DNA of 64,000 nt from Alphaproteobacteria bacterium (GCA_964291285.2 OZ219787.1:32001-96000); one strand, 5' to 3'. Positions 31,216 to 64,000 are shown, counted from the stretch's first letter. Notes: generated from the letters alone by a model not told the origin. Numbers and translations are program-made.

Positions 31216-33229
31216 CCCGACTTCCGCAACTCGGCTTGAGAATCGACTGATTTGACGGTTTTCCGGCGCGAGAAGTGTCGGATTTCGGTGCAGTACCTCT
31301 CGGGACCGGCTTGTAGTGCCGACCTACCCCCTTGATCGGGCTGGCGAAGATCCGGACGCTGCGCTGATGTTCGTGCGCTGCAAGAGACGCTTCAAGGACG
31401 GCAAGGAGCACCGCTACTGGAGCGTTGTGGAGAACGTCCGGGTCCACGGCGGTCGGGTTGTTCAGCGTCAGGTGCTCTATCTCGGGGAGATCAACGACAG
31501 CCAGCGAGCGGCGTGGTGCCGCTCGATCGAGGTGGTGGAGGGCAAGTCGCGATCACGGCAGATGGCGCTGTTTCCCGAGGACCGGGAGGCGCCGGCGCTG
31601 ACTTGCGAAGTGGTGAAGATCGACCTCTCGCAGGTGGCGCTTCACGACCCGCGCCAGTGGGGGGCGTGCTGGCTGGCGCTGTCCTTGTGGGACCGCCTGG
31701 ACCTGGACCGCTTCTGGGAAGAGCGGCTGCCGGCGAGCCGGCAAGGCACGCGGTGGCTGGACATCCTGAAGATCCAGGTCTGCTACCGGCTGATCGACCC
31801 GGGCAGCGAGTGGCGCCTTCACCGTCACTGGTATGAGCACAGCGCGCTTCGCGATCTTCTGGGTGGCGAGCGGGCGATCGCCGACGACACACTCTATCGC
31901 TGTCTCGACAAGCTGCTGGCGCACAAGCAGGGCTTCTTCTCGTTTCTGCGCGACCGCTGGGCGACGCTGTTCGAGGCGCGCTTCGACGTGCTGCTCTACG
32001 ACCTGACCTCGACCTACTTCGAGAGCGATCCGCCGTTCGATGACAAGCGCCGCTTCGGCTACAGCCGGGACAAGCGGCCCGACTGCGTGCAGGTGGTGAT
32101 CGCCCTGATCGTTACGCCGCAGGGCTTTCCGCTGGCCTATGAGGTGATGCCGGGCAACACCTCCGACGACACCACGCTGGCGGCGTTCCTCAAGAAGATC
32201 GAGGATCAGTATGGCCGCTCCGAGCGGGTGTGGATCATGGACCGCGGCATCCCCACCGAGGAGACGCTGGCCGCGATGCGCGAGGGCGAGGCGCCGGTGC
32301 GCTACCTGGTGGGCACGCCCAAGGGCCGGCTGACGCGGCTCGAGAAGGTGTTCCTGGGCCTGCCCTGGCAGGAGGTGCGCCAGTCCGTGACTGTCAAGCT
32401 TCTGGTCGAGGATGGCGAGCTCTACGTCCTGGTGCGCAGCGAGGGGCGGCAGGTGAAGGAACGCGGCATGCGCCGGCGCCGGCTGAAGAGGCTGTGGCGT
32501 CGATTGGCCGAGTTGCAAGGGCAGTCGAACAGCCGGGATCAGTTGTTGCTCAAGCTCGGCGCCGCCAGGAAGGAGGCCGGCCGGGCCTGGAGCCTGGTCG
32601 ACATCACCGTGCCCGGGACCGACAGCGAACTCGCCGCCAACGGCTTCTCATTCCGCCTGCAGCGCGACCGGCTGCGCCAGGTCCGCCGCCGCGAGGGCCG
32701 TTACCTGCTGCGATCCAACATGGTCGCCGAAGACCCCGCCACGCTGTGGCATCTGTACATGCAGCTCGTCGAGATCGAGCAGGCGTTCAAGGAACTCAAG
32801 CACGACCTCGCGATCCGCCCCATCTTCCATCAGCGCCAAGAGCGCATCGAGGCGCATATCTTCGTCTCGTTCATCGCCTACTGCCTGCTGGTGACCCTGA
32901 AGAACCTCGCCCGGCCGCGCGCCCCGGGCCTCACCCCACGCGCCATCCTTGAGGCCTTCGCCACCATCCAGATGGTGGACGTCCATCTGCCAATCACCGA
33001 CGGCCGGCACCTCGTCCTGCCGCGCCACACCCGGCCGAACAAGGAGCACGAGCTACTGCTGCAACAGCTCGGCATGACCTGGCCGCAGCAACCCGCACCC
33101 CGGATCTCCGCCTGACGGCACACGGCGCCGCCTCTCCGTTCGCCGCCTTGTAGTGCCGACCCTCGGGGAGACGATCAAGGCTATTCAATGAGTTAGCATC
33201 CTCATGACCCCCGAGTTGCGGAAGTCGGG
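31216..33229 (+). mobile_element. IS1634-family element, copy 2 (2014 bp)
   Basis: Same TIRs as copy 1; CTAA on both flanks. Confidence 0.9.
31367..33115 (+). CDS. IS1634-family DDE transposase
   Basis: Matches copy 1 except LPTTDG/LPITDG. Confidence 0.9.
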   Translation: MFVRCKRRFKDGKEHRYWSVVENVRVHGGRVVQRQVLYLGEINDSQRAAWCRSIEVVEGKSRSRQMALFPEDREAPALTCEVVKIDLSQVALHDPRQWGACWLALSLWDRLDLDRFWEERLPASRQGTRWLDILKIQVCYRLIDPGSEWRLHRHWYEHSALRDLLGGERAIADDTLYRCLDKLLAHKQGFFSFLRDRWATLFEARFDVLLYDLTSTYFESDPPFDDKRRFGYSRDKRPDCVQVVIALIVTPQGFPLAYEVMPGNTSDDTTLAAFLKKIEDQYGRSERVWIMDRGIPTEETLAAMREGEAPVRYLVGTPKGRLTRLEKVFLGLPWQEVRQSVTVKLLVEDGELYVLVRSEGRQVKERGMRRRRLKRLWRRLAELQGQSNSRDQLLLKLGAARKEAGRAWSLVDITVPGTDSELAANGFSFRLQRDRLRQVRRREGRYLLRSNMVAEDPATLWHLYMQLVEIEQAFKELKHDLAIRPIFHQRQERIEAHIFVSFIAYCLLVTLKNLARPRAPGLTPRAILEAFATIQMVDVHLPITDGRHLVLPRHTRPNKEHELLLQQLGMTWPQQPAPRISA

Positions 33230-47010: not shown

Positions 47011-47116
47011 TCTAAAGGGTTGATATAGCGATTGTTTTTCCTCGTGCAACAGCAAGCCGGGGGTGCAACTGCAACCGCAATCTCCCCCGCCTGCAAGTGG
47101 ATGCAGGAGGAAATCC

Positions 47117-48238
47117 ATGCCCAATGTCCGCCTCAGGGAGAGCCTGGTCGAGGCCCTTGAACCCCGGAAGTCGCCCTACGATGTCCGCGACGCCGATCTG
47201 AAGGGCTTCGGCGTCCGCGTCCTGCCCTCGGGTGCCAAGCGGTATTTCATTCACAGCCAGCACGAGGGCCGGCGCCTCTGGAAGACCGTGGGCGACGCCG
47301 GCAGCATCGGTCTCGACGAGGCCCGCCGGCAGGCAACGGAACTGCTTGCCGCCATCCGGCGCGACGAACCCGCCGCGCTTCCCGAAGACAGGCTTTTCGA
47401 GGCCGTGGCCGAGGAAGTGTTCGACCGCTACGGGCGTCACTGGAAGCCCGGAACCATGAAGGTCAACCGGAATTATCTCCGAAGCACGATCCTTCCCCGG
47501 TTCGGCGGGATGAACATAGCCGACATCACCCGGCAGGACGTGCAGAACTGGTTCGCGTCCCTTCATGCGACGCCGGTGATGGCGGACCGGTCCGTGCCGA
47601 TCCTCTCCGTCATCATGCGCCAGGCCGAGCTTTACAGCTACCGCCCGGAGGGCAGCAATCCCTGCACCGGCATCCGGCGCTACCGGCGCAAGGGCCGGGA
47701 GAGGTTCCTGTCGGGGCCGGAGCTTCGCCGTCTCGCACGAGTGCTCGAAGATCATGAAGAACGGCATTCGCGCAGCGTTGCGTTCATCCGCCTGTTGCTG
47801 CTCACCGGCTGCCGCAAGAGCGAGATCGGGACACTCCAATGGCCCGACTACCGCGAGGGGCGGCTGTTCCTGCGTGACTCCAAGACCGGCTCCCGGACGG
47901 TCTGGCTGTGCTCGCCCGCGCGCGACATCCTCGGCGGGCTCCCCCGGCAGGGCAAATGGGTCTTCCCCTCGCCGCGGAGGCGGGGGCCGCTCTGCCTGAC
48001 GTTGTTCGAGACCTTCTGGCGGCGGGTCCGGGAGGAAGCGGACATTGGTGATGTCCGGCTTCACGATCTTCGTCATACATATGCCAGCATCGCCATCATG
48101 GGGGGTGAGAGCGTCACGACCACGGCGCGGCTGCTGGGCCACAACGACGCGCAGACGACACTGAAATACGCCCATCTCAGCGACCGTTCGGTCCGGGAAG
48201 CCACCGACGCTCTCGGCCCCATTCTTGGGGAGGGCTGA
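47117..48238 (+). CDS. Tyrosine recombinase/integrase 1 with arm-binding domain
   Basis: GFGVRV..SG.K; LLTGCR, SKTG, HDLRH, LLGH, KYAH. Confidence 0.92.
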   Translation: MPNVRLRESLVEALEPRKSPYDVRDADLKGFGVRVLPSGAKRYFIHSQHEGRRLWKTVGDAGSIGLDEARRQATELLAAIRRDEPAALPEDRLFEAVAEEVFDRYGRHWKPGTMKVNRNYLRSTILPRFGGMNIADITRQDVQNWFASLHATPVMADRSVPILSVIMRQAELYSYRPEGSNPCTGIRRYRRKGRERFLSGPELRRLARVLEDHEERHSRSVAFIRLLLLTGCRKSEIGTLQWPDYREGRLFLRDSKTGSRTVWLCSPARDILGGLPRQGKWVFPSPRRRGPLCLTLFETFWRRVREEADIGDVRLHDLRHTYASIAIMGGESVTTTARLLGHNDAQTTLKYAHLSDRSVREATDALGPILGEG

Positions 48239-48241
48239 TCC

Positions 48242-49465
48242 ATGCCGAGGCGGAAAAGACTGACCGACGCAGGCATTGCAAGGCTCAGGCCGCAGGTGCG
48301 TGAATATACGCTCTGGGATACCGGAGTCGCCGGGCTCGGTGTGCGGGTCCGGTCTTCCGGCAGCCGGACCTTCATCTACCACCGCAAGACGGAAGGGGGC
48401 GTGCGGAAGATGTCCTTCGGCCCGGCGGCGCTGCGCAAGGTCGAGGACGTGCGCCGCGCCTGCATGGAGGCGGCAACCGCAACCACCGATGCGGACGATG
48501 CCTGCCACCAGAAGGCGCCGCTGTTCCGGGATTTCGTCGCCGGTCAATGGAAGGCGAATTGCTTCGAGCGCTGCAAGCTCTCCACGCAGAAGGGGTTCCG
48601 CAGCATGCTGAACCGCCGGCTGCTTCCTGCCTTCGGCGCCCTGCGTCTCGACTGCATCACCCGCAGCACGGCGCTCGGCTGGTTCGAGGCGGGCAGCCGG
48701 ACCGCGCCGGGGTCGGCCAATCACGCCCTCGGCCTGCTGCGCCAGATACTCAACCATGCCGTCGCCTGCGGCCATATCGCGACCAACCCGGTGCGCGGCA
48801 TCCGCCGCAATCCCGGCCGGAAGATGACGCGGTTTCTCTCCCGCGAGGAGATCGCCCGCCTTCACCGCGTCCTCGACCGGTATGCCGAAGGCTCCGCGTC
48901 CGAGGCGCAGCAGGCCGATATTATCTGCCTGTTGCTGCTCACCGGCTGCCGCAAGGGCGAGATCGTCTACCTCCGCCGCGAGGAGGTCAGGGACGACCGG
49001 CTGGAACTTGCCGACGCCAAGACCGGGCCGAGAACGGTCCTGTTGAACGCGCCGGCCAGGCAAATCGTCGCGCGCCGGATGCAGCAGGGAAACGGTCCCT
49101 GGCTGTTTCCGTCCGTCAGGGACCCGTTCCGTCCCTGGCCACGCAATCCCTGGCTCTGGTATCGGATACGGCGGGAAGCGGGCATCGAGGACGTGCGCCT
49201 CCACGACCTGCGCCACACGGTCGCCAGCCAGGCGGCGATGAACGGCGTTCCCCTCCCCGTCGTCGCCCGCATGCTCGGTCACAGCGACGTAAGTATGACC
49301 ATGCGCTATGCCCACGTTGGAGACCGCGAGGTCGAGGCGGCGGCAGAGCGGGTCGGGCAGGCCATCGCTGCGATAATCGGCATGGAAGAACCGGAAGCGG
49401 CGGCTCCTCCTTCTCAAAGGCAAGGGACCATGCCCGAGAAGCCGTCACCGATGCGTGGGGTGTGA
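48242..49465 (+). CDS. Tyrosine recombinase/integrase 2 with arm-binding domain
   Basis: GLGVRV; LLTGCR, AKTG, HDLRH, MLGH, RYAH. Confidence 0.92.
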   Translation: MPRRKRLTDAGIARLRPQVREYTLWDTGVAGLGVRVRSSGSRTFIYHRKTEGGVRKMSFGPAALRKVEDVRRACMEAATATTDADDACHQKAPLFRDFVAGQWKANCFERCKLSTQKGFRSMLNRRLLPAFGALRLDCITRSTALGWFEAGSRTAPGSANHALGLLRQILNHAVACGHIATNPVRGIRRNPGRKMTRFLSREEIARLHRVLDRYAEGSASEAQQADIICLLLLTGCRKGEIVYLRREEVRDDRLELADAKTGPRTVLLNAPARQIVARRMQQGNGPWLFPSVRDPFRPWPRNPWLWYRIRREAGIEDVRLHDLRHTVASQAAMNGVPLPVVARMLGHSDVSMTMRYAHVGDREVEAAAERVGQAIAAIIGMEEPEAAAPPSQRQGTMPEKPSPMRGV

Positions 49466-50244
49466 CGGTAAAACTCCGAACGGAGTCGAGATCGGGCGAG
49501 GTTGCCCTGCACACCACCGTCGCCTGAAACGCCGACGTCACAAGGGACGGGAGCCGTCGCGGCGATTGAGCGAGACGACCGGTCCGCGATCTTCGAGCGC
49601 GTTCCGCGTTGTCGTCCGGTCGCAGAGGTAACAGAACGCGGCGCGGCGTGCAAACGGCGGAGGGCAGTCTTCACACATGGCGCACCGGAGCCGGCGGCGT
49701 TACCTCGGCGGCACGGGCGCCGCCGCACATGTTCCGCGGAGCCGAAGGACGCCGCGCACATGTTACCGCGATACAGGCGTGCTGGACGAAAGCGGGGCTG
49801 TTCAGGGTGATTGCGTGCTGCTCACACATTGCCGCAGACGCAGCCGGGGATGGCGCACCCGTTACCGCGGCGTCAGCCGCGCGGGTGCGGTGACGGTTGC
49901 GATAGCCGTTGCGATCGGAGGCGCCGACGGCGGCGCCTGCAGGACTGCGGGCAGCGGTGCGAAGCACGGTGTCGTGCCGGTCCGGCAGCAGCGCCGGCAG
50001 TGGGCGGGTCAGCAGTGCCTGCGGCACTGCGCCGGGCTCGGCGCAGCCCGCGATGCACCCATGCGAAGCATGGTGCAGCGGCGCGTGATGCGGCAGCCCC
50101 GGATCGCAGTCCGGGGCAGGCTCCGCACGGGCGCGGCGCGAAGCGCGCGCGAGGTGTCGGCGGCGCAGCGCGACGGGTGTGCGCATACGGAGACGGACCC
50201 GCCGCCGCCGGAGCGGAGACGACGCGGCCCGTGGGTGCTGCGTG

Positions 50245-51162
50245 TCAGGCGGGGCAGCGCATGACCGGGATGCCGAGGCTGCGGGCCTTGTCGACGAGGT
50301 TTTCGGTGATGCCGGAGCCGGGGAAGGCGATGACGCCCCTGGGCAGGAGGTTGAGCAGTTCGTCGTTGCGGCGGAACGGTGCGGCGCGACCGTGGCGGTC
50401 CCAGTCGGGCTTGCAGACGACCTGGTGGACGCCGTTGCGCTCGGCCCAGCGCGCCGCGATCTTCTCGACGCCGGGACCGCCGCCATGCACGAGTACGAGG
50501 TCGGCATACTTGGCGCGGGCCTGGTCGAGCCTGGCGATCACCGCGGCCGGGTCGGCGATGTCCTTGCCGCCGGCGATGGCGACGAGGGTGCCCTGCGGCA
50601 GGTGCGCCATGGTCGCGCGGTCCTTGCGGGCACGGACGAAGTCGCGGGCGTCGATGGCGGCGCTGGTGAGCGTGCCGGTCTGGCTGGCGTGGCTGCCGTG
50701 CGGGGGCCGCCACATGTCGCCGGTCTCTTCGCGGTAGGCGTGCGCGGCGGTGTTGCGCATCTTCTCGAAGGCGTCGCGCCGGTCTCCGAGGTTCTGCGCG
50801 CGGTCGGTGACGAGCTCCAGGTCGCGGGACTTGATCTCGGTGCCGTCCTGCTCGCGCTGGAGGTCGCGCAGGTCCGGGCTGAGCCGGTCGACGCTGCGGT
50901 CGAGGCGGCGGCTCTGGGCGTGGAGCATGTTGACGAAGCCCCACAGCAGGCTCTCGCGTTCGTCGGCGAGCTGGGTGCCGTCGGGGCAGGCGCCTTCGAC
51001 GAGGATGCGGAAGGCCTCGCCGATTGCGGTCAGCGCATCGTCCTCGTCCCAGACCTCGCGCGTGTCGAACTCGTCGCGCTCGGGGGTTGCGCCGTAGAGG
51101 GCGGCGTTGTCGCAGACGATCGCGGTTGCGGACTGCGCTGCGGTTTCGATATCGAAGGTCAT
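50245..51162 (-). CDS. DUF2493 (YspA/SLOG-fold) domain protein
   Basis: LVLVHGG.PGVE.IAARWA, PDWDRHGRAAPFRRND, AFPGSGIT. Confidence 0.85.
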   Translation of the reverse strand: MTFDIETAAQSATAIVCDNAALYGATPERDEFDTREVWDEDDALTAIGEAFRILVEGACPDGTQLADERESLLWGFVNMLHAQSRRLDRSVDRLSPDLRDLQREQDGTEIKSRDLELVTDRAQNLGDRRDAFEKMRNTAAHAYREETGDMWRPPHGSHASQTGTLTSAAIDARDFVRARKDRATMAHLPQGTLVAIAGGKDIADPAAVIARLDQARAKYADLVLVHGGGPGVEKIAARWAERNGVHQVVCKPDWDRHGRAAPFRRNDELLNLLPRGVIAFPGSGITENLVDKARSLGIPVMRCPA

Positions 51163-51190
51163 GTCGTTTTCCTTTCGGTTTCACGTTCGG

Positions 51191-51488
51191 GGCCGATCCC
51201 CGCTGTGATGTCCTGTTGGGTCACGCGCGCGCAACGGAAGCACCTGGGCCTGGAAGCTCTTGGGGCGGAGTGGTGCGGAAAGTCGGCGAGTGGTGCGGAA
51301 GATCGCGTTCGCACCGCCGATGCCAGGCGTGCTCGGCCTCTGACACGCGATCTTCACGGTCGCCGGCTTTCACGGTCCGCCCCTGGAGCTTCTTGCCCAG
51401 GCCGCAGGGAGCGTAGCGACCGGAGGACCCCGAAGGGGTTGCTGGAGAGAGCACGTGTGGCACAATGGGACAGCACAGCGGGGTGGCT
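51191..51488 (+). promoter_or_regulatory. ~300-nt rod-like hairpin, candidate Frpo-like ssDNA promoter
   Basis: Nested inverted repeats; TTGCTG-N16-CACAAT on the 3' arm. Confidence 0.55.
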
Positions 51489-51571
51489 TATTCTCTCCCC
51501 CTGCACGGACCCCATCGTCGTTTCGGCCCGGTACGGCGCCGGGAAGGATTTTCGGCCCTGCCGCCTTTGCG

Positions 51572-51799
51572 TCAGTTCCACAGGGGATGGGAGTCGACCC
51601 GCTGCCGGGCGGTCTCGCGGATGCGGGTGCGGTCGTGGAGATAGACGGGGCCGCGCGGGTCTTCGTCGAGGTGTATGGCGAACACCTTGCGCCCCGGCCG
51701 GGTGCTGTCGTCGAAGGCGTGGACGTCTCCGACATGGTCGCCGTCCCGGTAGATGCGGGATTCGTCGGGGGCGATGCGGCGGAAGGAGATGGTGCTCAT
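51572..51799 (-). CDS. Hypothetical 75-aa protein
   Basis: SD GGAG; globular-looking composition; co-oriented with ssb. Confidence 0.7.
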   Translation of the reverse strand: MSTISFRRIAPDESRIYRDGDHVGDVHAFDDSTRPGRKVFAIHLDEDPRGPVYLHDRTRIRETARQRVDSHPLWN

Positions 51800-51980
51800 C
51801 GGGTTCTCCGGGTAGCGTGACGGGTGCGCGAGCGGACTCCCTCCCTCCTCGCACGGTTCACCCGCTTTCCAGCCTCGCTCCCACTCCCGTATGCGCCGCG
51901 GCGAGACTCGAACCTGCCCGCATGAGAAAAGGGCCGACGCGCGAGGCGCCGACCCTGTGGGGAGGGAAGAACGGGAAGCT

Positions 51981-52406
51981 CTAGAACGGGATCTGATCCT
52001 TATCCATCGGGTCGCCGCCGGCCGCGTCCGGGCCGGGCTGCGCGGCGTTGCCGTTCGCCTTGTCGAGGAACTGGACGCGCCCGCCGGGCACGAGCAGGAT
52101 CTCGGTCGAGAAGCGGTCGCCGTCCTCGCCCGGCTTCGACCAGCGCCGGGTCTGGAGCTTGCCGTCGATGTAGACCAGCCGGCCCTTCGTGGCGTGCTTC
52201 TCGAACATGTCGATCAGCCCGTCCTGGAAGGTCACGACCCGGTGCCACTCGGTCCTGTCGACCTTCTCGCCGGTCTGCTTGTTGATGAACGACTCGTCAG
52301 TCGCGATGCTCAGGTTGGCGACGCGCCCGCCCGATGCGAGGTGGTTGATGGTGACGTCGGCGCCGAGGCGGCCGATGATCTGCACCTTGTTCAATCCGAA
52401 ACTCAT
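51981..52406 (-). CDS. ssb: Single-stranded DNA-binding protein (element-borne)
   Basis: NKVQIIGRLG, TEWHRVV, GKLQTRRW, C-terminal DQIPF. Confidence 0.95.
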   Translation of the reverse strand: MSFGLNKVQIIGRLGADVTINHLASGGRVANLSIATDESFINKQTGEKVDRTEWHRVVTFQDGLIDMFEKHATKGRLVYIDGKLQTRRWSKPGEDGDRFSTEILLVPGGRVQFLDKANGNAAQPGPDAAGGDPMDKDQIPF

Positions 52407-52498
52407 TGCGATACTCCTTCAGGTTCGCGTTGATGACGATGGGTTGCGAACGACCGGGGCCGGGGTCACTCCCCCGAACCCCCGACCGTTCAATCTCT

Positions 52499-52762
52499 TC
52501 AGGCCCTCCTCCACCTCCGGTTCGCCGGAGGGAGCGACGCCGCCGGGTTCCGGGGCTCCGCCGGGTCCTGGAGGGACATCCCGAACGCCGGTTCCGGGAA
52601 GAGGCTCGCGAAGCCGTGTTCCGGACAGGCCGCGCCCCGGTCGGGACAGCGGATGGCGCGCTCGTCCTCGGCGATCTCGCGGACGGTGCGACGGTCGACG
52701 CCGAGTTCGGCGAGCAGGTCGCAGCCAAGCGGAAGGTCGAGGGATGTATCGGGATGAAACAT
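52499..52762 (-). CDS. Hypothetical 87-aa protein (MFHPDTSLDL...)
   Basis: SD GAGGAG; co-oriented in the cassette. Confidence 0.5.
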   Translation of the reverse strand: MFHPDTSLDLPLGCDLLAELGVDRRTVREIAEDERAIRCPDRGAACPEHGFASLFPEPAFGMSLQDPAEPRNPAASLPPANRRWRRA

Positions 52763-52956
52763 GGGCGGGGTCTCCTCTGCCGTTGCCCTGCCCGGCGACC
52801 TGTGCCGGACATCGATCCGGCATCGGCGGGGAGTCCTCTCCTCCGCCCTGCCGGACACTCGCCCGGCAGGCGCTTCACCCCTCTCCACGACACAGGGACG
52901 GCGCGGCGGATCGCGGCCAGGCGAGCGCCGCCATCGCCGCCCGGGACAGCATGTCA

Positions 52957-53088
52957 TACCAACGGTCGTTGATTGGAACCTATAGCAGAGCCTCCCTCCG
53001 CAGCTCGCCCCCTGAGCCGAGGCCTCCTACTGCAAGAGGTAATCTCCGCCGAGAGAGGCTAATCGGTTCTTATCTGTGGCCGGTGGTA
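52957..53088. mobile_element. 132-bp MITE with IS630-like TACCA termini
   Basis: Imperfect 24-bp TIR taccaacggtcgttgattggaacc / ggttcttatctgtggccggtggta; TCA on both flanks. Confidence 0.65.
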
Positions 53089-54075
53089 TCAGGTCCAGGC
53101 GGTGAAGGAGGCGGTGACGGGGGCGTCGGCGACGATCTCGACGCGGTTGCGGTCGAGCTTCCCGAAGGCGAGGCAGAGGGCGACATCGGCCGGATCGTCG
53201 AACGGACCGTGCTCGCGGCCGGTCTCCAGTTCGATCACGGTCCAGACCGGCTCGTGGACCGGGATGCCCTTGAAATGCGCCGAGCCTTGATACGACCTCT
53301 CGGCACAGGGCGCACAGCGCGCCGCCCCCTGTGACGGCGCCCCGCAGGCCGTGCACAGGCCGGCGGCCCGGCGCCGGGCGTACAACTGCCGCGAGCGCGC
53401 GTTCTTGCGCTCCGGGTCGTGGCTGGCTTCCTCGATGGCGGCGCAGGGGCCGCAGCGCGAGAGGCCGTCGAAGGCCGGCTGCCCGCAGCGTGTGCAGCGG
53501 CCCCCGGTCCTGCGTTCGTCATATTGCCGCCGTTCCGCCGCCTGCCTCCTGTCCCGGCAGGGCTGGCAGGTGGTTCCGCCCTCGACGGGGGGCTGCTTGC
53601 CGCAGCGGATACAGAGTCCCGCCTCGATCCGGGCTTTCTGGCGGCGCTTGCTCTTCGCCCGGGCGGCGCGCCTTTTGGCTTCGGCATCGGCCCCGCCATA
53701 CTTGAGGCCGGCGGCTTTCCCGGCGGCGTATTTCGCGCGGTCCGCTGCCCGGCGCTTCTCCAGGCACGGCTCGCACGACGCGCGGCCCTCCACGGCCGGC
53801 GCCTGGCCGCAGCGAATACAGAGGCCTTTGGCGGCCCTTTGTTCCCTCTTGCTGCGGGTGCGCTGGCGCTCGGACTGCCGGACGGTTTCGGGGTCTCTTC
53901 GCGGTGTGCCCGCGGCGCGCGGGCGGGCATCGCGGGCGCGGCTGCGTTTCGCGGCGCACCCGGCGCAGACGCTGCGCCCCGGCGCGGACGGGACCTTGCC
54001 GCAGCGCGGACACAGGCCTTGGGCGATACGCTCGCGGTCGCGGGCCTTGCGGACTTCCGGGTCCCGGCAAGCCAT
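53089..54075 (-). CDS. Arg-rich protein with five CxxC-x9-11-CxxC zinc-finger repeats
   Basis: CPRC..CAGC, CIRC..CEPC, CIRC..CQPC, CTRC..CGPC, CTAC..CAPC; SD GGGAG. Confidence 0.8.
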   Translation of the reverse strand: MACRDPEVRKARDRERIAQGLCPRCGKVPSAPGRSVCAGCAAKRSRARDARPRAAGTPRRDPETVRQSERQRTRSKREQRAAKGLCIRCGQAPAVEGRASCEPCLEKRRAADRAKYAAGKAAGLKYGGADAEAKRRAARAKSKRRQKARIEAGLCIRCGKQPPVEGGTTCQPCRDRRQAAERRQYDERRTGGRCTRCGQPAFDGLSRCGPCAAIEEASHDPERKNARSRQLYARRRAAGLCTACGAPSQGAARCAPCAERSYQGSAHFKGIPVHEPVWTVIELETGREHGPFDDPADVALCLAFGKLDRNRVEIVADAPVTASFTAWT

Positions 54076-54161
54076 GGCCATTCTCCCGGTGGATGATGCG
54101 GGGTCGGGCGGGAGACGCCCGGCCGGCGGCGGGCCGGCCGGACGTCCGGCGAGGCGGGCGG

Positions 54162-54488
54162 TCAGCCGCGCTGGCGGCGGTCGGCGAAGATCCCGAGGCT
54201 GCGCCAGCCCCACAGCTGCACACCGCAATGCCGCAGTCTGACCCCCGTCGCGATGATGATCTCGTCCCGGGCCGGACGCATCTCTTCAAGCGCCTTCGCG
54301 GTGACGATCGTGCCCCGGGCCTTGCGACGGCCCTTGCATGCCGTGCCGCCGGACCGGACGGGAACGATCTCGCCGTCGGCCTTCGAGACGTAGCGTTCGA
54401 CGACATAACGGTCGTCCTCAAGACCGTCGCCGACGAAGTGGATGAGATAGGTGCGCGCGTCGCCGCGCGGTGCGATTGCTGCCTGCAT
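54162..54488 (-). CDS. Hypothetical 108-aa protein (MQAAIAPRGD...)
   Basis: SD AAGGAG; co-oriented. Confidence 0.6.
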   Translation of the reverse strand: MQAAIAPRGDARTYLIHFVGDGLEDDRYVVERYVSKADGEIVPVRSGGTACKGRRKARGTIVTAKALEEMRPARDEIIIATGVRLRHCGVQLWGWRSLGIFADRRQRG

Positions 54489-54817
54489 CGTGCCGTGCTC
54501 CTTCGACAGGTGAATGGGAACGGCGGCAGCGCTGCTCTCCCTCCGGAGCGCCGACCGCCGCCCCACTCACGGCCAGACTTCGCCTCTCGGCGGCGCAAGG
54601 CCGGCAGGCAGGCGGCAGCAGCCAGTGTTGTCGGCCGGGTTCGCGGTCCTGAAGGTATTTCTTGAGCGCTTTGGCGAGAATCCGGCGCCATCAATCCCTG
54701 ACGCTCAACTGCTCCGCAGTTTGCCCGAGGGACCGGAAGAAGCCGGCGATCCGGCGCAGGGCCACCATCACCGTTTCGCGGCACCCGTGATGGGAGTTCA
54801 CCGTCAGCCGGTTCCGG

Positions 54818-56269
54818 GATCGTGTCCCGAGCCGTGGTGTAAGAGCCTGGCGCCCGTGGCGGTGTCCGGCGGGTAGGGCCGGTAGGCTCAGGCTGCCACG
54901 GCGGGCAGCTTGACGGTTGCATTGTCGCTCACGGGAGCGATGGATTCCAGCGTTACGTATCTGGCTCTCTGGACGGCCCATTCGTCGTTCTGCTCGAGCA
55001 GGATGGCACCGATCAGGCGGGTGATGGCGTTCTCGTTGGGGAAGATGCCGACGGTGTTGGTGCGCCGCTTGATCTCGCCATGGAGGCGTTCGAGCGGGTT
55101 TGTGGAGTGCAGCTTGGCGCGATGCGCGGCCGGGAAGGTCATGTAGGCGAGAACATCGTGCTCGGCCTCGTCCATGATGGCGGCGAGCTTCGGCGCCTTG
55201 GGCCTGAGCTGGTCGGCGACCTGGCGCCACTGGGCGGAGGCGCTGTCTGCATCCTCCTGGGCGAAGGCGGTGGTGACGAAGGCGGAGACGACGCGCCGGC
55301 CCTGCTTGCCGGCATGGGCGAGCAGGTTGCGCATGAAATGCACGCGGCATCTCTGCCATGTGGCGCCGAGGATGCGGGTCGCGGCGGCCTTCAGGCCCTT
55401 GTGGTCGTCGGAGATCACCAGCTTGACGCCGCGCAGGCCGCGCCGGGCGAGCGAGCGCAGGAAGTCGGTCCAGAAGGTCTCGGCCTCGGACGCGCCGATC
55501 GCCATGCCGAGCACCTCGCGCCGGCCCTGGTCGTTGACCGCCACCGCGATGGTGACCGCGACCGAGACGATGCGCCCGGCCTCGCGCATCTTCACATAGG
55601 TCGCGTCCAGCCACAGATACGGCCAGTCGCCCTCCAGCGGCCGGTCGAGGAAGTCGCGGATCTTGTCGTCGATCTCGCCGCACAGCCTGGACACCTGGCT
55701 CTTGGAGATGCCCGACATGCCCATCGCCTGCACCAGGTCGTCGACCGAGCGGGTGGATACGCCCTTGATGTAGGCCTCCTGGATCACCGCCGTCAGCGCC
55801 TTCTCCGCCATCCGCCGCGGCTCAAGGAAGCCCGGGAAGTAGCTCCCCTTGCGCAGCTTCGGGATCTTCAGCTCGACCGTGCCGGCGCGCGTCTCCCAGA
55901 CCCGGTCGCGGTAGCCGTTGCGGTGCGTGATCCGGTCCGGCGAACGCTCGCCGTGCCCGGCGCCCGCAAGGCCCTCAACCTCAAGCGCCATCAGACGCGC
56001 GGCCGTGAACCCGATCATCTCGCGAAGCAGATCGGCGTCGGAACTCTTCTCCAACAGCGCCCGCAGGGTCATCATGTCGGTGGTGGTCATCGTGGTACTC
56101 CTCCGGTCGGATGGACTGTGGAAGCCCAACCCTACCGGCACCGCGATGGCCATCCGCTATGGATAAGTGGCCCGCCGCCGCCAGACTCCAGACGGTCGCG
56201 GCGGCGGGCCACTTACCCACAGCTACCGATGGTGGCTCCAGCTCCTACACCACGCCTGGGGGCACGACC
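54818..56269 (-). mobile_element. IS256-family element
   Basis: 26-bp imperfect TIR; 8-bp target duplication GGTTCCGG at 54810-54817 and 56270-56277. Confidence 0.92.
54888..56090 (-). CDS. IS256-family transposase
   Basis: [38 protein letters not shown]. Confidence 0.95.
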
Positions 56270-56414
56270 GGTTCCGGCCCGCATGGTGGGCTTGGCGGGC
56301 GACGCGGTTCAGGAGCAGTGCCCTGCTGGTGATCGCCTCGCCGTGCGCTGGTACACTGGGCTGGTACTTGAGCGCCACTATTGAGATCGTGGACACAGTA
56401 TCTCTGCGATCTCA

Positions 56415-57581
56415 TACCAGCGGGCATAGTTCAGAACCCATTGGCCCATTTTCGGGTTCCGATGGAGGCGATGCGTTCTGGTTGTGAGACGAGATTGTTC
56501 CAGGCCTGGCAGCAGTGATCGAGTATGTCGTCGTAGTTCTGGAAGACGCGGTTCGAGAGCCAATTTTCGCGCATGAACTGCCAGACATTCTCGACGGGAT
56601 TGAGCTCGGGGGACCGGGGCGGGAGCGGCATCAGGGTTATGTTGTCGGGGACTTTGAGGGCCGGGGATGTGTGCCATCCGGCCCGGTCGAGCATGACGAG
56701 GGCATGGGCTCCGGGTTCAACGGTGAGGGCGACCTCGGCGAGGTGGGCGTTGAGTGCCTCCGTGTTGGCGTGGGGCATGACGAGGCCGGCGGCCTTGCCC
56801 TTCTGCGGGCATATGGCGCCGAAGATGTAGGCCGAGATGGTTCTCTGGTCCTTGGGCGCTGACGGTCGGGTGCCGCGTTTAGCCCATCGCCGGGTGATCT
56901 TGTTCTTCTGCCCGACGCGCGCCTCGTCCTGCCACCAGACTTCGACCTCGACGCCGTCGCCGAGTGCAGCGCGGATCTCCTTCAGGCGGTCGGGGAAGTT
57001 TTTTTGAACCCTGCCAGCGCGGCTTCGTCCTGGGCATAGTGGCGCGGGCGCGCAGAGAGCTTGGCGTAGCCCATCCGGCGCAACTCCCGCCCGACCGTCG
57101 TCTCCGCCAACGAGATGCCGAACTGCTCGCTGAGCCATGCCGCCAGGTCGCAGCGCCGCCACCGCACCACGCCGTGGATCGCCGGGTCCGGACCGCTCTC
57201 CACAACCGCCGCCAGCGCCGCGCGCTGCTCCCCGTTCAACTTGCGCGGCGGACCTGAGGCCTTGCGATCCTTCAATCCCTCCGGGCCTTCCGCGTTGAAG
57301 CGAAGAACCCAGTCCCGGATGATCTGCAAGCCCACCCCCGCAAAACGCGCCGCATCCGAACGACGGTAACCGTCGTAAATCACCGCAAGCGCAAGAAGGC
57401 GACGGTTCTGCGAACCATCCCGGCTCCGCTGCGCCAAGCCGCGCAACTGCGCCGCATCAAAATCCTCCCTCAAGGGGATTGCTGCCCTCATAACGACCCT
57501 CCAATCGCAGAATCGCTATTGAGTCAGAACTCGATAACCTTGGGAATCCCCTCAATGAGTCTCAACCCTCAACCGCTGGTA
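56415..57581 (-). mobile_element. IS630-family element with -1 frameshifted transposase (OrfA 56982-57491, OrfB ending 56431)
   Basis: TACCAGCGG termini; slippery A7 run at GFKK; WWQDEAR, LDRAGWH, SPELNPVE. Confidence 0.9.
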
Positions 57582-59835
57582 TCACCCACTAGCTCGCAAA
57601 GTACCGCCGTATCAGCCCCTCTCACAGTGCGGTCAATTGTCGATAGCCCGTATCGCGGTTGCATGGCCTCGGCGGCATGTCGCCGAAGCTCAGCGGCCCC
57701 TTGGATCCGCATGTCGGGCGCTAACGACCGTTCGGTTTCGGTTTGCAGGTCACGGGAGATTTTCTTTAGCAATGCTTCTTTGGCACCAGGCGGACCCGAG
57801 ACCGCCAGCGCGGAACAACCCCACAATCCGTCTCCGAATATATCGGCGCACGACATATGCCTTCCTGCCTTAAACGTCCAACCCAGAAGAAGATTGCTAA
57901 TTTCCTCTGCGTTGTCGGAACAGTCCAATTCACGCGCTGTCCGCGCAGATGCAAACAGGGTATCTGTTAACCCCATTTTCCTAGGAATGATACCGATACC
58001 TCTTCGTCCGGAATCCAACTCAGCGTGGCTATCAGCCAACTTGCATGATTACGTAATTCTCTGCGGGTTTGGTGGTCGCAAACGTGCGCATTCGACGTCA
58101 CCAGAAGAATCCCGGTCATACCTTGTATCCATTGAAGCATATGGCTCGTAAAGTGAGACTCCGCAACTACGGCTGCAAAAAGTAGCTCCTTCGCCGACCG
58201 ATACAAGTCTTTCGCCCACTGCTCGATGTTTCTTGCCACCGTTTGAGCGACTTTGTTTTCAACATCTGAGCCTGATATGAAACTGACTAAACGTGCCAAT
58301 TCAATCCTCAAGGCCTGATAATCACTAGAAGAAAAATAAGGAACGAGCATCATGCCATGATCCATACCATGAATATCCTGGGGGACGTTACTGCGAATCT
58401 TTACGAATTGCTTCGCTATAGAAAATACGTTATCTTGTATCTTGTCCAGTGCGGATTTGATATTGTGTCCTTTGGAACGAAGTAGAACGAGCGTCAGATC
58501 CCTGTACTGTTTCATACCCTCCATAATCACGGGGCGGTAGTTTTCCCTTACGCATCCAGTCAAGGCAACATGCGCGATACTCTGACAGAGCACTGCCACT
58601 GCGGGGTCGGTCTCGTGTCCAGCCGCCACAAAATGACGGGTTGCTTGTCCCGTAAGCCGTTGTCCCTCCATCAGCACGTCGGCCAGGTCATGTCCTGCGG
58701 CCGCTTGTACAGCATTTGCGAGATATCCCGCCGCAAGTTGTGCGTGATGCTTCTCCGCCCCAGGATTGGCGTAGTCGATATCAGCATATAGCTGCACAAG
58801 CATTGTCAGCGCCCGCATCAGTTGTTCTATCTGTCGTTCGTCGCGACGTCCGATTGCAGTGTCAGCATTCTGGCGTAGGCATTCCAGACTGTCGGTAATG
58901 AACGCATCGTGTGACCAAGGATGCTCAATCATGAGCGCGTTGGCGTAGAACGTTGTCCCCTTCGCCTTTATGTAGGCGGCATTGATCCCGACAATAACGT
59001 CGAGTGCATACCTGGATACTTCATAATCCCTTTGCTCTGCATACCGCCGCGCGAAAGACATGGCATGATGCATATTTCTGATAGCATCGGATGTCCAATG
59101 CGAATTTTTTTGAAAAAACTTCGTTCGCACAGCGTCGGGATTCGAGCGCTCGGGTAATTGCAGGTCGGTAACCTGTTCCTCCGTCTGCGGTGGCAATTTA
59201 TACCGATCCGCTTTTCGACCCCAACCGCACAACTCTTTTTGCGTGTCGTGAAGGATTATATGAAGTTGTTCCAAAGGGTTTATCAACTTTAACGCTCGTC
59301 GATATGCATACAGGAATAGGAACAAGATAGCCAACACAGACCAAGTAGAAAAGACCAACGGTAAGACCAGTCTTGTTTGCTCCACTACAGTCGATATAAC
59401 TGCCACGGCGACCGCCAGTGCGAATGCGCTCGCAAATGAACCAAGTAGCTTGCAATCTTCACTGATTCGTCGAAATAAACCGTGGGGCATTCGTTCAACA
59501 TTCACTTGCATCGCAAACAGTACAAGAGAGGCTACTATAGCGGCGGCGCCGATCAACGCGGTGCCGGTATTCAGCAAGAGGCCTTGTACCCGTAGGATTG
59601 TTTCCAAAGGTAACAGTTTGTCTTCAAGAAGGGACTGCAGGTCCGGCAACAGGGTCACGCTCGCCGCAGCGAAAAACGCGATGATAGAAACGACCACGGC
59701 TTTGTTGCCGTATCTGACGAAATATTGTCCTGCCATGTGACGAAAATTGACAATGTAGTGTTGCAGCGTTACCAATCGACGGTACCATTTTTTTCTTGAC
59801 ACCTGCCGCAATCTCCTACGGGCTTTTTTGTTCAT
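57582..59835 (-). pseudogene. Large low-GC membrane protein, frameshifted near 57980 and cut by IS630
   Basis: 622-aa ORF with ~4 N-terminal TM helices continues in another frame; tail EIAEILCPRSQ* lies beyond IS630 (56378-56414). Confidence 0.6.
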
Positions 59836-60143: not shown

Positions 60144-63350
<3,207 letters not shown>

Positions 63351-63462
63351 TACGCCGCGGCTCTGCGCGCTCCCGGGACAAATCTTGCGCGCTCGCGGCG
63401 GAGCATCTCGTACGGACTCATGTGGTGCAGGTTCCTGGCCCGGATGAACGCTTTGACGACCG

Positions 63463-64000
63463 TCACGGTCCAAACGGTCTGTATTCGATCAAGGCGGACC
63501 GGCCGAGGATGTCCACGATGGTGATCGACAATTCCGAGCCATGGGCGTCCGTCAGCCGTATCGGTTTGCCGGGCCGAAACGGCACGGGTTGCGGACGCCC
63601 CTCGTCGATGGCGATGTTGTCGGCATACAGATACGTCCGGTCAGAAGTATCGCGTATCGGGTTCAGCCGTCCGTGCAGGCCAGGAAGGTGTCCCGTGCTC
63701 TGAGAGAAAATCGCGGCACCACCGGATTCGAGCGGTTCGAGTTCGAGCTGCAGGCCGCCCCGATTGGGGGTCCAGGCTCGTTCCAATCCGGCGGCATACC
63801 CCGACCCGGCAGCATAGATCGTCATCGGCAAATTCGTCGTGTAAAGGTCCAGGGCCGCATCGCCGGCCTCGTCAGTCGTCGCCCGGACCCAGGTCTTGTT
63901 GGGAAAGAGCGCAAGAACCTCGATACCGGCGAGGGGCTCACCTCCGCAATGCACCGTGACTGTTGCGTCGGCAGGAACAAGCTCCAGCTTGGCCGCGGGA
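63463..64000 (-). CDS. Hypothetical protein, C-terminal part (beta-rich), upstream of hsdR
   Basis: Frame open to the window edge; [14 protein letters not shown]...TTDEAG resembles a beta-sandwich. Confidence 0.7.

What the first reader, a model, noticed from the sequence alone, without database searches (positions are those of the whole stretch)
53089..54075. Modular five-zinc-finger protein on a mobile element
Seen: five units of G(L/R)CxxCG-x8-10-CxxC, each followed by an Arg/Lys-rich helix, then a ~65-aa acidic domain (WTVIELETGREHGPFDD). No nuclease motif. Tandem C4 finger arrays are uncommon in bacteria. Inference: a repeat-based nucleic-acid reader that may regulate the cassette or bind its hairpins.
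Basis: partly seen in the sequence, partly recalled or inferred. Interest (0 to 1): 0.7.

Follow-up and report, generated by a model that had tools for sequence, protein, structure and literature searches.

The report
Tandem zinc-ribbon protein of mobile islands
This gene encodes a very basic protein made of five zinc-binding modules plus a small acidic tail domain; it belongs to a large unnamed family that travels with a single-strand-DNA-binding gene on integrating, transferable DNA islands and is present 17 times in this one genome, but what it binds is still unknown.

Summary
Window 53089-54081 (minus strand) is an intact 330-aa gene. It has five CxxCG-x8-10-CxxC units, each flanked by Arg/Lys-rich helices, and a 66-aa acidic C-terminal domain.

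It matches no curated family and no solved fold: Pfam DZR_2 scores below its cut-off, NCBIfam, PHROGs and PADLOC give nothing, and the best PDB Z is 4.3. It is nevertheless a real family under purifying selection, with at least 810 homologues carrying 4-8 units.

It is the second gene of a ~4.7-kb module: structured leader, 108-aa protein, hairpin, ZnF, 87-aa protein, SSB, 75-aa protein, YAcAr (SLOG) protein. The module sits on integrase-bearing defence islands and on ICEs with TrwC relaxases. This genome has 17 copies.

Best reading, inferred and not shown: a nucleic-acid-binding establishment protein that acts with SSB on transferred DNA. The main rival is an operon regulator that binds the module's conserved hairpins. 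The unit conservation pattern argues against a freely modular reader.

This scan noted a related 6-8-unit family next to SSB on an ICE in another genome (e1-782268).

The parts
53089..54081 (-). ZnF gene: 330 aa from the ATG at 54081 (328 aa from 54075), stop codon at 53089-53091
   Evidence: start supported by the MAMACRD N-termini of 6 paralogues; dN/dS 0.2-0.36 against 66-73%-identical homologues
53956..54012 (-). zinc-ribbon unit 1 (residues 22-40, CPRCG...CAGC)
   Evidence: variable loop across the family
53764..53820 (-). zinc-ribbon unit 2 (residues 86-104, CIRCG...CEPC)
   Evidence: DNA repeat D2
53557..53613 (-). zinc-ribbon unit 3 (residues 155-173, CIRCG...CQPC), the best conserved unit
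53443..53496 (-). zinc-ribbon unit 4 (residues 194-211, CTRCG...CGPC)
53305..53355 (-). zinc-ribbon unit 5 (residues 241-257, CTACG...CAPC)
53092..53289 (-). acidic C-terminal domain (residues 263-328; strands 278-282 and 288-292, helix 295-304, strand 312-316)
   Evidence: best PDB match Z 4.3
54165..54488 (-). p108: conserved 108-aa protein of no known family, the gene directly upstream of ZnF
   Evidence: directly upstream in 43 of 49 eligible foreign loci and 17 of 17 own-genome copies; 210 homologues, nearly all 108 aa; no Pfam match
54510..54570 (-). structured leader hairpin just upstream of the p108 ribosome-binding site
   Evidence: 131 nt, -77 kcal/mol, z -3.98, 0 of 200 shuffles as good; the same hairpin with a varying inner stem in related loci; its core word occurs once per module, 17 of 17
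54114..54146 (-). GC-rich hairpin between the p108 stop and the ZnF start (GACGUCCGGCCGGC / GCCGGCCGGGCGUC)
   Evidence: a GGACGUCC-type hairpin at the same place in at least 16 of 26 related loci
52957..53088 (.). MITE (~134 bp, terminal inverted repeats TACCACCGG/CCGTTGGTA) inserted at the ZnF stop codon, with TGA duplicated on both sides; the ORF stays intact
52499..52762 (-). p87: small conserved protein (MF..D..LLAELG.D..VRE..D..RCPDR) that precedes SSB
   Evidence: no family match
51981..52406 (-). SSB with a C-terminal ...DQIPF tail
51572..51799 (-). p75: small conserved protein
50245..51162 (-). 305-aa protein with a C-terminal YAcAr (DUF2493, SLOG) domain; last gene of the module
   Evidence: E 2.2e-23
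47063..49465 (+). two tandem P4-type tyrosine integrases at the island end
54888..57491 (-). IS256-family transposase gene (54888-56153) and IS630-type DDE_3/HTH genes (56431-57491) inserted upstream of the module
   Evidence: module homology with other copies stops at 54596-54599

Best explanation
ZnF is a member of a large unnamed family of very basic tandem zinc-ribbon proteins. Members have 4-8 Cys4 knuckles separated by Arg/Lys-rich helices, then a small acidic alpha/beta tail domain.

Shown: it is the second gene of a conserved ~4.7-kb module, in the order leader hairpin, p108, hairpin, ZnF, p87, SSB, p75, YAcAr/SLOG protein. Integrase-bearing islands and ICEs with MOB-F (TrwC) relaxases carry this module in a few lineages of uncultured Alphaproteobacteria and some Gammaproteobacteria.

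Inferred mechanism: the module is an establishment (leading-region-like) gene set. ZnF binds nucleic acid through its knuckles and arginine-rich helices, most likely the transferred single strand or its folded hairpins, alongside SSB. The near-invariant units 3-5 and the tail domain would dock a partner protein. The variable units 1-2 would tune target preference.
For: Real and selected gene:
- 810 homologues at E<=1e-3 among the 8000 candidates scored; 387 clusters at E<=1e-10.
- dN/dS of 0.2-0.36 at dS of about 0.8-1.0.

Nucleic-acid-binding build:
- Net charge of about +37 over residues 1-262; the flanking helices hold 5-10 K/R each.
- The only sequence resemblance to a solved structure is the rRNA-binding zinc ribbon of eL37 (E 0.0047).
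- The closest predicted structures are short phage multi-zinc-ribbon proteins: 8 BFVD hits at E<=1e-3.

Context:
- SSB lies within 3 kb downstream in 29 of 39 eligible foreign loci; YAcAr lies within 9.5 kb in 22 of 34.
- In the own genome: SSB 15 of 17, YAcAr 14 of 17, an integrase within 12 kb 14 of 17.
- One copy lies just beyond TraF-TraH-TraG_N-TrwB-TrwC of an F-type ICE (L073).
- An 8-unit paralogue with the same tail domain sits directly after SSB, between Toprim/DUF7146 genes, ~3.5 kb from TrwC (L077).
- Another locus has NikA-like and TrwC genes downstream (L037).

Literature (passages read): SSB and establishment/anti-defence genes cluster in the first-entering region of conjugative elements (PMC11541004).
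Against: - No binding of any kind is shown.
- oriT is unmapped, so 'leading region' is an inference.
- In the window itself no relaxase lies within the 64 kb, and 20 of 34 foreign loci have no integrase match of 200 aa or more within 10 kb.
- tblastn found no homologue in 72,556 PLSDB plasmids or 50,697 phage records, so the family is absent from every studied conjugative system.
- No promoter-like hexamers were found in 52300-54900.
- Being the second gene behind a structured leader fits a regulator equally well.
- No fusion to an enzymatic domain was found (weak evidence).
Confidence: 0.4

Rival explanations
1. ZnF, perhaps with p108, is the regulator of its own module. It would bind the conserved leader hairpin or the p108/ZnF intercistronic hairpin, as RNA or DNA, and set expression of SSB and the downstream genes.
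For: - p108 and ZnF are the first two genes behind a 60-nt hairpin. The hairpin is conserved with a varying inner stem and a purine-rich loop.
- The hairpin's core word occurs once per module and nowhere else at up to 1 mismatch: 17 of 17, and all 55 other hits have 2-3 mismatches.
- A second hairpin sits between p108 and ZnF in at least 16 of 26 loci, in some followed by a U-rich run like an attenuator.
- Arginine-rich helices and an eL37-like ribbon are typical RNA binders.
- Variation is concentrated in units 1-2.
Against: - RNAalifold supports only 5 invariant pairs on the MAFFT alignment, and the window's intercistronic hairpin is not better than shuffles (z -1.01).
- Five to eight units and a net charge of +33 are far more than known operon repressors need.
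- The 8-unit paralogue lies downstream of SSB, not at an operon start.
- I made no test of covariation between protein and hairpin.
Confidence: 0.25
2. ZnF is an anti-defence or stealth factor. It would coat incoming or resident island DNA to shield it from restriction or CRISPR, or silence the island's cargo like a plasmid-borne nucleoid protein.
For: - The islands carry defence cargo: HsdR in the window; type I R-M, AbiE, CRISPR-Cas I-E and PLD in related loci.
- Anti-defence genes cluster with SSB in leading regions (PMC11541004, passages; bioRxiv 10.64898/2026.01.13.699239, passages).
- The protein has an extreme positive charge.
Against: No similarity to any known anti-restriction protein. 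PADLOC has no match, but it holds defence models, not anti-defence ones. High sequence conservation (about 70% identity across genomes) is unusual for arms-race proteins.
Confidence: 0.15
3. ZnF is an accessory DNA-bending or directionality factor for the islands' paired tyrosine integrases.
For: Tandem P4-type integrases lie beside the module in the window and within 12 kb of 14 of 17 own-genome copies.
Against: - Only 14 of 34 foreign loci have an integrase within 10 kb.
- Position and orientation of the integrases relative to the module vary.
- The 8-unit paralogue sits by a serine recombinase and a relaxase instead.
- Known directionality factors (recalled) are small.
Confidence: 0.07
4. 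ZnF is a decayed or cryptic nuclease derived from HNH or endonuclease VII type zinc-binding enzymes.
For: Weak resemblances only: HNH endonuclease 4h9d at E 0.055, and BFVD rows named HNH or endonuclease at E 0.005-0.08.
Against: The 9-11-residue spacers between the Cys pairs leave no room for a beta-beta-alpha-metal site and hold no His/Asn motif. No HNH family was listed at E<=0.01.
Confidence: 0.03

Closest known systems
Double zinc ribbon proteins (Pfam DZR_2, PF18912) and short phage multi-zinc-ribbon proteins in BFVD
   Same: Consecutive Cys4 zinc ribbons. DZR_2 is the only Pfam family listed (E 1.4e-4). Eight BFVD models match at E<=1e-3, with TM 0.33-0.70 on the target and 21-32% identity. 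The Atlas lists DZR/DZR_2 clusters at 0.86-0.87, a lead only.
   Different: The score of 22 bits is under the 27-bit cut-off. Here there are 5 (4-8) units, each embedded in long basic helices, plus a conserved acidic tail domain of unmatched fold. The phage proteins are 93-162 aa and equally uncharacterised.
Ribosomal protein eL37 zinc ribbon
   Same: The stretch GLCxRCGxxxxxxxxxxCxxC followed by a basic tail aligns with units 1 and 4 (E 0.0047-0.15). eL37 binds rRNA (established knowledge).
   Different: It has a single ribbon. The match is marginal and short (about 37 positions). It is not a mobile-element protein.
Leading-region establishment proteins of conjugative plasmids (SSB, PsiB, ArdC and the like; PMC11541004)
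   Same: Co-located with a plasmid-type SSB on transferable elements next to relaxase genes. ArdC is a precedent, recalled from memory, for an ssDNA-binding protective protein in this region.
   Different: No sequence or fold relation. oriT, strand and timing of expression are unknown here. The family is absent from the PLSDB plasmids searched.
Cys4 zinc-binding domains of DnaG/T7-type primases (recalled, not tested)
   Same: A Cys4 zinc ribbon that reads single-stranded template DNA. Toprim/DUF7146 primase-like genes flank the 8-unit paralogue.
   Different: No primase family match, no catalytic domain, and many ribbons instead of one.
   Same: Same kind of protein in the same neighbourhood. 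This genome's paralogue P0273 (8 units, after SSB, near a large serine recombinase) fits that description.
   Different: Only 2 of 70 short words are shared with the window's gene. The window's 5-unit subfamily comes with p108 upstream and sits on dual-integrase islands.

Membership tests
Pfam DZR_2 (PF18912, double zinc ribbon) | whole-protein score at or above the curated 27 bits | tested here: not met
   22 bits, E 1.4e-4, no stretch passing on its own; 2 of the 120 listed homologues carry a precomputed PF18912.7 hit
Zinc ribbon (generic Cys4 knuckle pair) | two CxxC knuckles 8-15 residues apart, conserved in homologues | tested here: met
   five units; the Cys columns of units 2-5 are invariant or at least 90% conserved in 37 sequences; zinc itself was not measured
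HNH / endonuclease VII nucleases | beta-beta-alpha-metal site with catalytic His/Asn between the Cys pairs | tested here: not met
   9-11-residue spacers without His/Asn; no HNH family at E<=0.01; only marginal rows
Classical C2H2 zinc-finger arrays | Cys2-His2 ligands with a recognition helix, joined by short conserved linkers | tested here: not met
   all ligands are Cys; units lie 39-69 residues apart and are joined by long helices
eL37 ribosomal zinc ribbon | significant profile match over the eL37 ribbon and its extensions | tested here: inconclusive
   E 0.0047, 19 bits, about 37 positions
Leading-region / establishment gene set of conjugative elements | co-location with a plasmid-type SSB on a transferable element | tested here: met
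   29 of 39 foreign loci and 15 of 17 own-genome copies; relaxase and T4SS genes beside some copies
Leading-region / establishment gene set of conjugative elements | lies next to oriT on the first-entering side, coded on the transferred strand, expressed early from ssDNA | not testable with these tools
   oriT unmapped; no RNA run listed; no sigma-70-like hexamers
Ogr/Delta-type zinc-finger activators of P2/P4 (family recalled from memory) | match to the family profile | tested here: not met
   not among the Pfam families listed at E<=0.01
Known solved folds for the C-terminal domain | structural match covering residues 270-320 | tested here: inconclusive
   best Z 4.3 (rmsd 2.5, 41 aligned, a topoisomerase II segment) and Foldseek E>=0.9; the domain was not folded and searched on its own

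The most novel reading that the evidence does not exclude
The zinc-ribbon array is a structure-specific reader of the module's own conserved hairpins on the transferred single strand. It would mark or open an ssDNA start site (promoter, priming site or hitcher oriT) so that relaxase-less dual-integrase islands can establish after riding on a co-resident ICE. The variable units 1-2 would match each island lineage's hairpin. That would be a new class of ssDNA-hairpin recognition protein.
Probability: 0.12. Interest if true: 0.8.

Novelty: new variant of a known kind. Interest (0 to 1): 0.5.

Why it matters
If ZnF acts on incoming DNA together with SSB, it would add a new protein type, built from a known zinc-ribbon unit, to the establishment toolkit of conjugative and hitch-hiking islands. 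That toolkit is currently known almost only from enterobacterial plasmids.

The family is abundant in uncultured bacteria: at least 810 proteins, and 17 copies in one 6.1-Mb genome. It is absent from the sequenced plasmid and phage collections searched, so it marks a mobile-element lineage that standard annotation does not see.

The fixed module with its two conserved hairpins gives a concrete, testable protein and nucleic-acid pair.

Tried and rejected
**Family and sequence searches without result for ZnF**
- NCBIfam, PHROGs, PADLOC.
- phmmer against PDB at E<=1.
- tblastn against PLSDB plasmids and INPHARED phages.
- Search for longer, fused forms (weak evidence).

**Structure searches**
- Foldseek against PDB gave no match at E<=1e-3.
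- VIA-align wide gave nothing at Z>=5. The whole flexible model was used, so single parts are barely tested.

**p108**
- Pfam on 29 members gave nothing.
- The Atlas gave no usable hit.
- The AlphaFold2 model reached only pLDDT 57.6, so I did not use it for a fold search.

**Complex prediction**
- ZnF residues 236-328 with p108: 'no answer', score 0.00 in two runs, controls not run. This is neither for nor against binding.
- The job was accepted only, after the queue had been full many times.

**RNA and regulatory scans**
- Rfam on 49000-55000 gave no match at E<=1.
- No RNA holder was listed among the sequencing runs, so I laid no reads.
- The promoter/terminator scan gave nothing above shuffles.

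**ZnF-SSB fusion rejected**
- An apparent ZnF unit fused in frame to SSB in L077 (P0272) is a 5' fragment of the neighbouring ZnF paralogue lying upstream of the SSB start. I do not count it as a fusion.

**Literature**
- The phrases 'tandem zinc ribbon', 'zinc ribbon repeats', 'multiple zinc ribbons', 'zinc ribbon array' and 'repeated zinc ribbon' occur in 0 papers.
- Searches on YAcAr/SLOG, DUF2493, and zinc ribbon plus ICE or leading region found no description of this family.
- Subscription journals are not covered.

Full report
**1. The observation**

The six closest paralogues in the same genome all begin MAMACRD, so translation most likely starts at the ATG at 54081.

The 328-aa translation P0001 holds five units of CxxCG, 8-10 residues, then CxxC, at residues 22-40, 86-104, 155-173, 194-211 and 241-257. 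Only 2 of 10,000 shuffles of the protein gave two or more such units.

Residues 1-262 have 65 K/R against 27 D/E (pI 10.5, charge about +37). The last 66 residues are acidic (pI 4.84). Units 1-3 are still recognisable as DNA repeats, with periods of 207 and 192 nt at 71-75% identity. The description is correct.

**2. The protein is real and selected**

- A word-indexed search found 810 homologues at E<=1e-3 among the 8000 candidates scored. The best 120 are 65-91% identical, and the only source names are 'hypothetical protein'.
- An exhaustive HMMER search of 50%-identity representatives found 2689 proteins at E<=1e-3, 387 at E<=1e-10 and 71 at E<=1e-30. Many of these are fragments or frameshifted calls.
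- Pairwise dN/dS against 48 intact homologues from other genomes is 0.2-0.57. It is 0.2-0.36 for the pairs at 66-73% identity, where dS is about 0.8-1.0.
- Unit number varies. Among the best 120 homologues, 6 have four units, 86 have five and 28 have six. A distant paralogue in this genome (P0273, 403 aa) has eight units and the same tail domain.
- The units are position-specific. Across 37 sequences the cysteines of units 2-5, the linker AGKAAGLxYGG, unit 3 and the tail domain are invariant or nearly so. Column entropy in 88 five-unit proteins is concentrated in unit 1, the helix after it and the loop of unit 2.

**3. No known family or fold**

- Pfam lists only DZR_2, at 22 bits against a cut-off of 27. 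NCBIfam, PHROGs and PADLOC list nothing.
- Sequence search of the PDB is empty for the single protein. With the family profile the best hit is the zinc ribbon of ribosomal protein eL37 (E 0.0047, 19 bits, about 37 positions). An HNH endonuclease follows at E 0.055.
- AlphaFold2 on a 37-sequence alignment gives mean pLDDT 84.2 and pTM 0.41. The model is a chain of helix, knuckle, helix elements followed by a strand-strand-helix-strand domain at 278-316.
- Foldseek against the PDB finds nothing at E<=1e-3. VIA-align against 48,161 representative chains finds nothing at Z>=5; the best is Z 4.3 (rmsd 2.5, 41 residues), on the tail domain.
- Against predicted viral structures, eight matches reach E<=1e-3. 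All are short (93-162 aa) uncharacterised phage proteins with several zinc ribbons, except one 1260-aa giant-virus protein.
- The 9-11-residue spacers between the Cys pairs contain no His/Asn motif, so an HNH-type active site is excluded on sequence.

**4. Context in the window**

On the minus strand the order is as follows.

| Coordinates | Feature |
|---|---|
| 54510-54570 | structured leader |
| 54165-54488 | p108, 108 aa, no family; 210 homologues, nearly all 108 aa |
| 54114-54146 | GC-rich hairpin |
| 53089-54081 | ZnF |
| 52957-53088 | MITE |
| 52499-52762 | p87, a small conserved protein |
| 51981-52406 | SSB, ending ...DQIPF |
| 51572-51799 | p75 |
| 50245-51162 | 305-aa protein with a YAcAr (SLOG, DUF2493) domain |

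Downstream of the module lie two tandem P4-type tyrosine integrases on the other strand (47063-49465), and then a chromosomal CobW gene.

Upstream, the module is cut off at 54596-54599 by IS256-family and IS630-type insertions. Beyond them lie a low-GC 622-aa gene of no family and a type I restriction R subunit.

The MITE gives 30 BLAST rows in the genome: the window's own copy, 27 other near-full-length copies and one copy split in two. It sits exactly at the ZnF stop codon. TGA is present on both sides of it, and the ORF is intact. Of the 16 other module copies, 15 lack the MITE.

**5. Copy number and distribution**

- The window's genome (6.1 Mb, 5 contigs, 100% complete by the tool's estimate) has 17 full-length copies. 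One of them carries an in-frame TAG. There are also about eight more distant, longer paralogues.
- The copies fall into two subtypes, six starting MAMACRD and eleven starting MCEQQD.
- The shared DNA unit runs from about 49450 or 49923 to 54596 in window coordinates, roughly 4.7-5.1 kb.
- In this genome p108 is directly upstream in 17 of 17 copies. SSB is within 3 kb downstream in 15, YAcAr within 6 kb in 14, and an integrase within 12 kb in 14.
- A scan of one genome per species found 60 loci. All are in metagenome-assembled genomes labelled Alphaproteobacteria, Rhodospirillales, Rhodospirillaceae or Defluviicoccus, plus a few labelled Gammaproteobacteria. There are up to 8 loci from one assembly.
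- Among the 54 loci with a near-full-length match, p108 is directly upstream in 43 of 49 eligible. SSB is within 3 kb in 29 of 39, YAcAr within 9.5 kb in 22 of 34, and an integrase match of 200 aa or more within 10 kb in 14 of 34.
- In an even sample of the class, 8 of 401 genomes (6 of 307 genera), including the window's own, have the family.
- No homologue was found in 72,556 plasmid records or 50,697 phage records.

**6. What kind of element carries it**

- Flanks of related loci carry defence cargo: type I R-M, AbiE, CRISPR-Cas I-E, PLD and methylases. In one case NikA-like and TrwC relaxase genes lie downstream of the module.
- The own genome has 21 TrwC matches and 30 YAcAr matches. It has no PF03135 VirB4 match.
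- Locus L073 nevertheless shows an F-type set, TraF, TraH, TraG_N, TrwB-type coupling protein and TrwC. This is followed by an integrase, the ZnF module and another integrase.
- The eight-unit paralogue lies directly after SSB, between two Toprim/DUF7146 genes, ~3.5 kb from a TrwC gene and near a large serine recombinase.
- Earlier notes of this scan, unchecked except as stated, describe dual-integrase defence islands in this genome (e1-3097958). They also describe a related 6-8-unit zinc-ribbon family next to SSB on an ICE in another genome (e1-782268).

So the module belongs to integrating, conjugatively transferred or mobilised islands.

**7. The hairpins**

- *Leader of p108.* A 131-nt stretch including the leader folds at -77 kcal/mol, with z -3.98, and 0 of 200 dinucleotide shuffles fold as well.
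- *The leader hairpin in other loci.* In 27 loci the outer arms (GGGGCGGCGG / CCGCCG) are almost invariant. The inner stem differs in sequence yet still pairs, and the loop stays purine-rich. Folded singly, 15 of 27 reach z<=-2.0 against 50 mononucleotide shuffles each.
- *Caveat on the leader.* RNAalifold on the MAFFT alignment recovers only five pairs with almost no covariation, so the structure is not formally proven.
- *Specificity of the leader.* Its 20-nt core occurs at up to 1 mismatch exactly once per module, 17 of 17. All 55 other hits have 2-3 mismatches.
- *The p108/ZnF hairpin.* In the window it is no better than shuffles (z -1.01). A GGACGUCC-type hairpin recurs at the same place in at least 16 of 26 loci by a strict pattern, and 12 of 26 have z<-2.
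- Rfam has no match.

These are the only plausible cis targets near the gene. Nothing links them to ZnF yet.

**8. Mechanism**

Shown:
- a selected, very basic Cys4-ribbon array with a conserved tail domain;
- a fixed operon partner, p108;
- constant company of SSB and a SLOG-domain protein;
- carriage on integrase- and relaxase-bearing elements.

Inferred: SSB genes on conjugative elements mark the region expressed first in the recipient, which is rich in establishment and anti-defence genes (PMC11541004, passages read). Integrative islands seem to follow the same logic (bioRxiv 10.64898/2026.01.13.699239, passages read).

I therefore read ZnF as a nucleic-acid-binding establishment protein that works on the transferred strand with SSB. 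The conserved half (units 3-5 and the tail) would be the docking part and units 1-2 the variable contact. I put this at 0.4.

The rivals are:
- a regulator acting on the module's hairpins (0.25);
- an anti-defence or silencing coat (0.15);
- an integrase accessory factor (0.07);
- a decayed nuclease (0.03).

That YAcAr/SLOG domains resemble the DprA fold is recalled from the literature and was not tested here.

**9. Novelty**

The building block is known, as is the habit of mobile elements to carry SSB-linked establishment genes. The family, its tail domain, the p108 partner and the module are undescribed in the libraries and papers I could search. This scan has already met a related subfamily on other DNA.

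I class it as a new variant of a known kind, of moderate interest. It would rise sharply if hairpin- or ssDNA-specific binding were shown.

Noticed in passing
window 54510-54570 (minus strand): A roughly 60-nt hairpin in the p108 leader has near-invariant outer arms, a varying but still pairing inner stem and a purine-rich loop. Its core word occurs exactly once per module (17 of 17) and has no Rfam match. It could be an RNA leader, an ssDNA site or a protein target.
   Followed up: partly
window 54114-54146: A GC-rich hairpin lies between the p108 stop and the ZnF start. It recurs in related loci and in some is followed by a U-rich run, so it looks like an internal attenuator or terminator.
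   Followed up: partly
window 52957-53088: A 134-bp MITE with about 28 near-full-length copies in the genome is inserted exactly at the ZnF stop codon, with TGA on both sides. I did not check whether it is the same element.
   Followed up: partly
window 15178-17037 and 31256-33115: Two copies of an IS with a 619-aa DDE_Tnp_1 transposase. About 48 further copies align in the genome.
   Followed up: no
window 57967-59835: A 622-aa gene of no known family sits in a stretch of about 51% GC within a 67% GC window, next to a type I restriction R subunit (60144-63473). It is probably foreign defence cargo of the island.
   Followed up: no
L073 (G000:C1:772000-791999): An F-type conjugation set (TraF, TraH, TraG_N, coupling protein, TrwC) is followed by an integrase, the ZnF module and another integrase. 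With 21 TrwC matches in 6.1 Mb, this genome recalls the amplified ICEs (RAGE) of Orientia, a paper I saw only as a search listing.
   Followed up: partly
L077:8016-8747: The open frame of an SSB gene starts with a 5' fragment of a ZnF paralogue (one zinc unit) in the same frame.
   Followed up: partly
window 51268-51305: A tandem 18-nt repeat (GAGTGGTGCGGAAAGTCG, two copies 20 nt apart) lies between p75 and the YAcAr gene. It is a possible binding site.
   Followed up: no
other genomes, (G191, G155, G006): Several matches to the family that cover only units 2-5 carry one in-frame TAG each. They may be four-unit genes with the match read through an upstream stop, or recurrent pseudogenes.
   Followed up: no
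window 54013-54075 (N-terminal helix of ZnF): The window's copy lacks 8 residues (RRTASRIA) and 3 residues (NRA/G) that its closest relatives have. Three type-B copies lack 15 residues at the same helix. The helix before unit 1 therefore tolerates length change.
   Followed up: no
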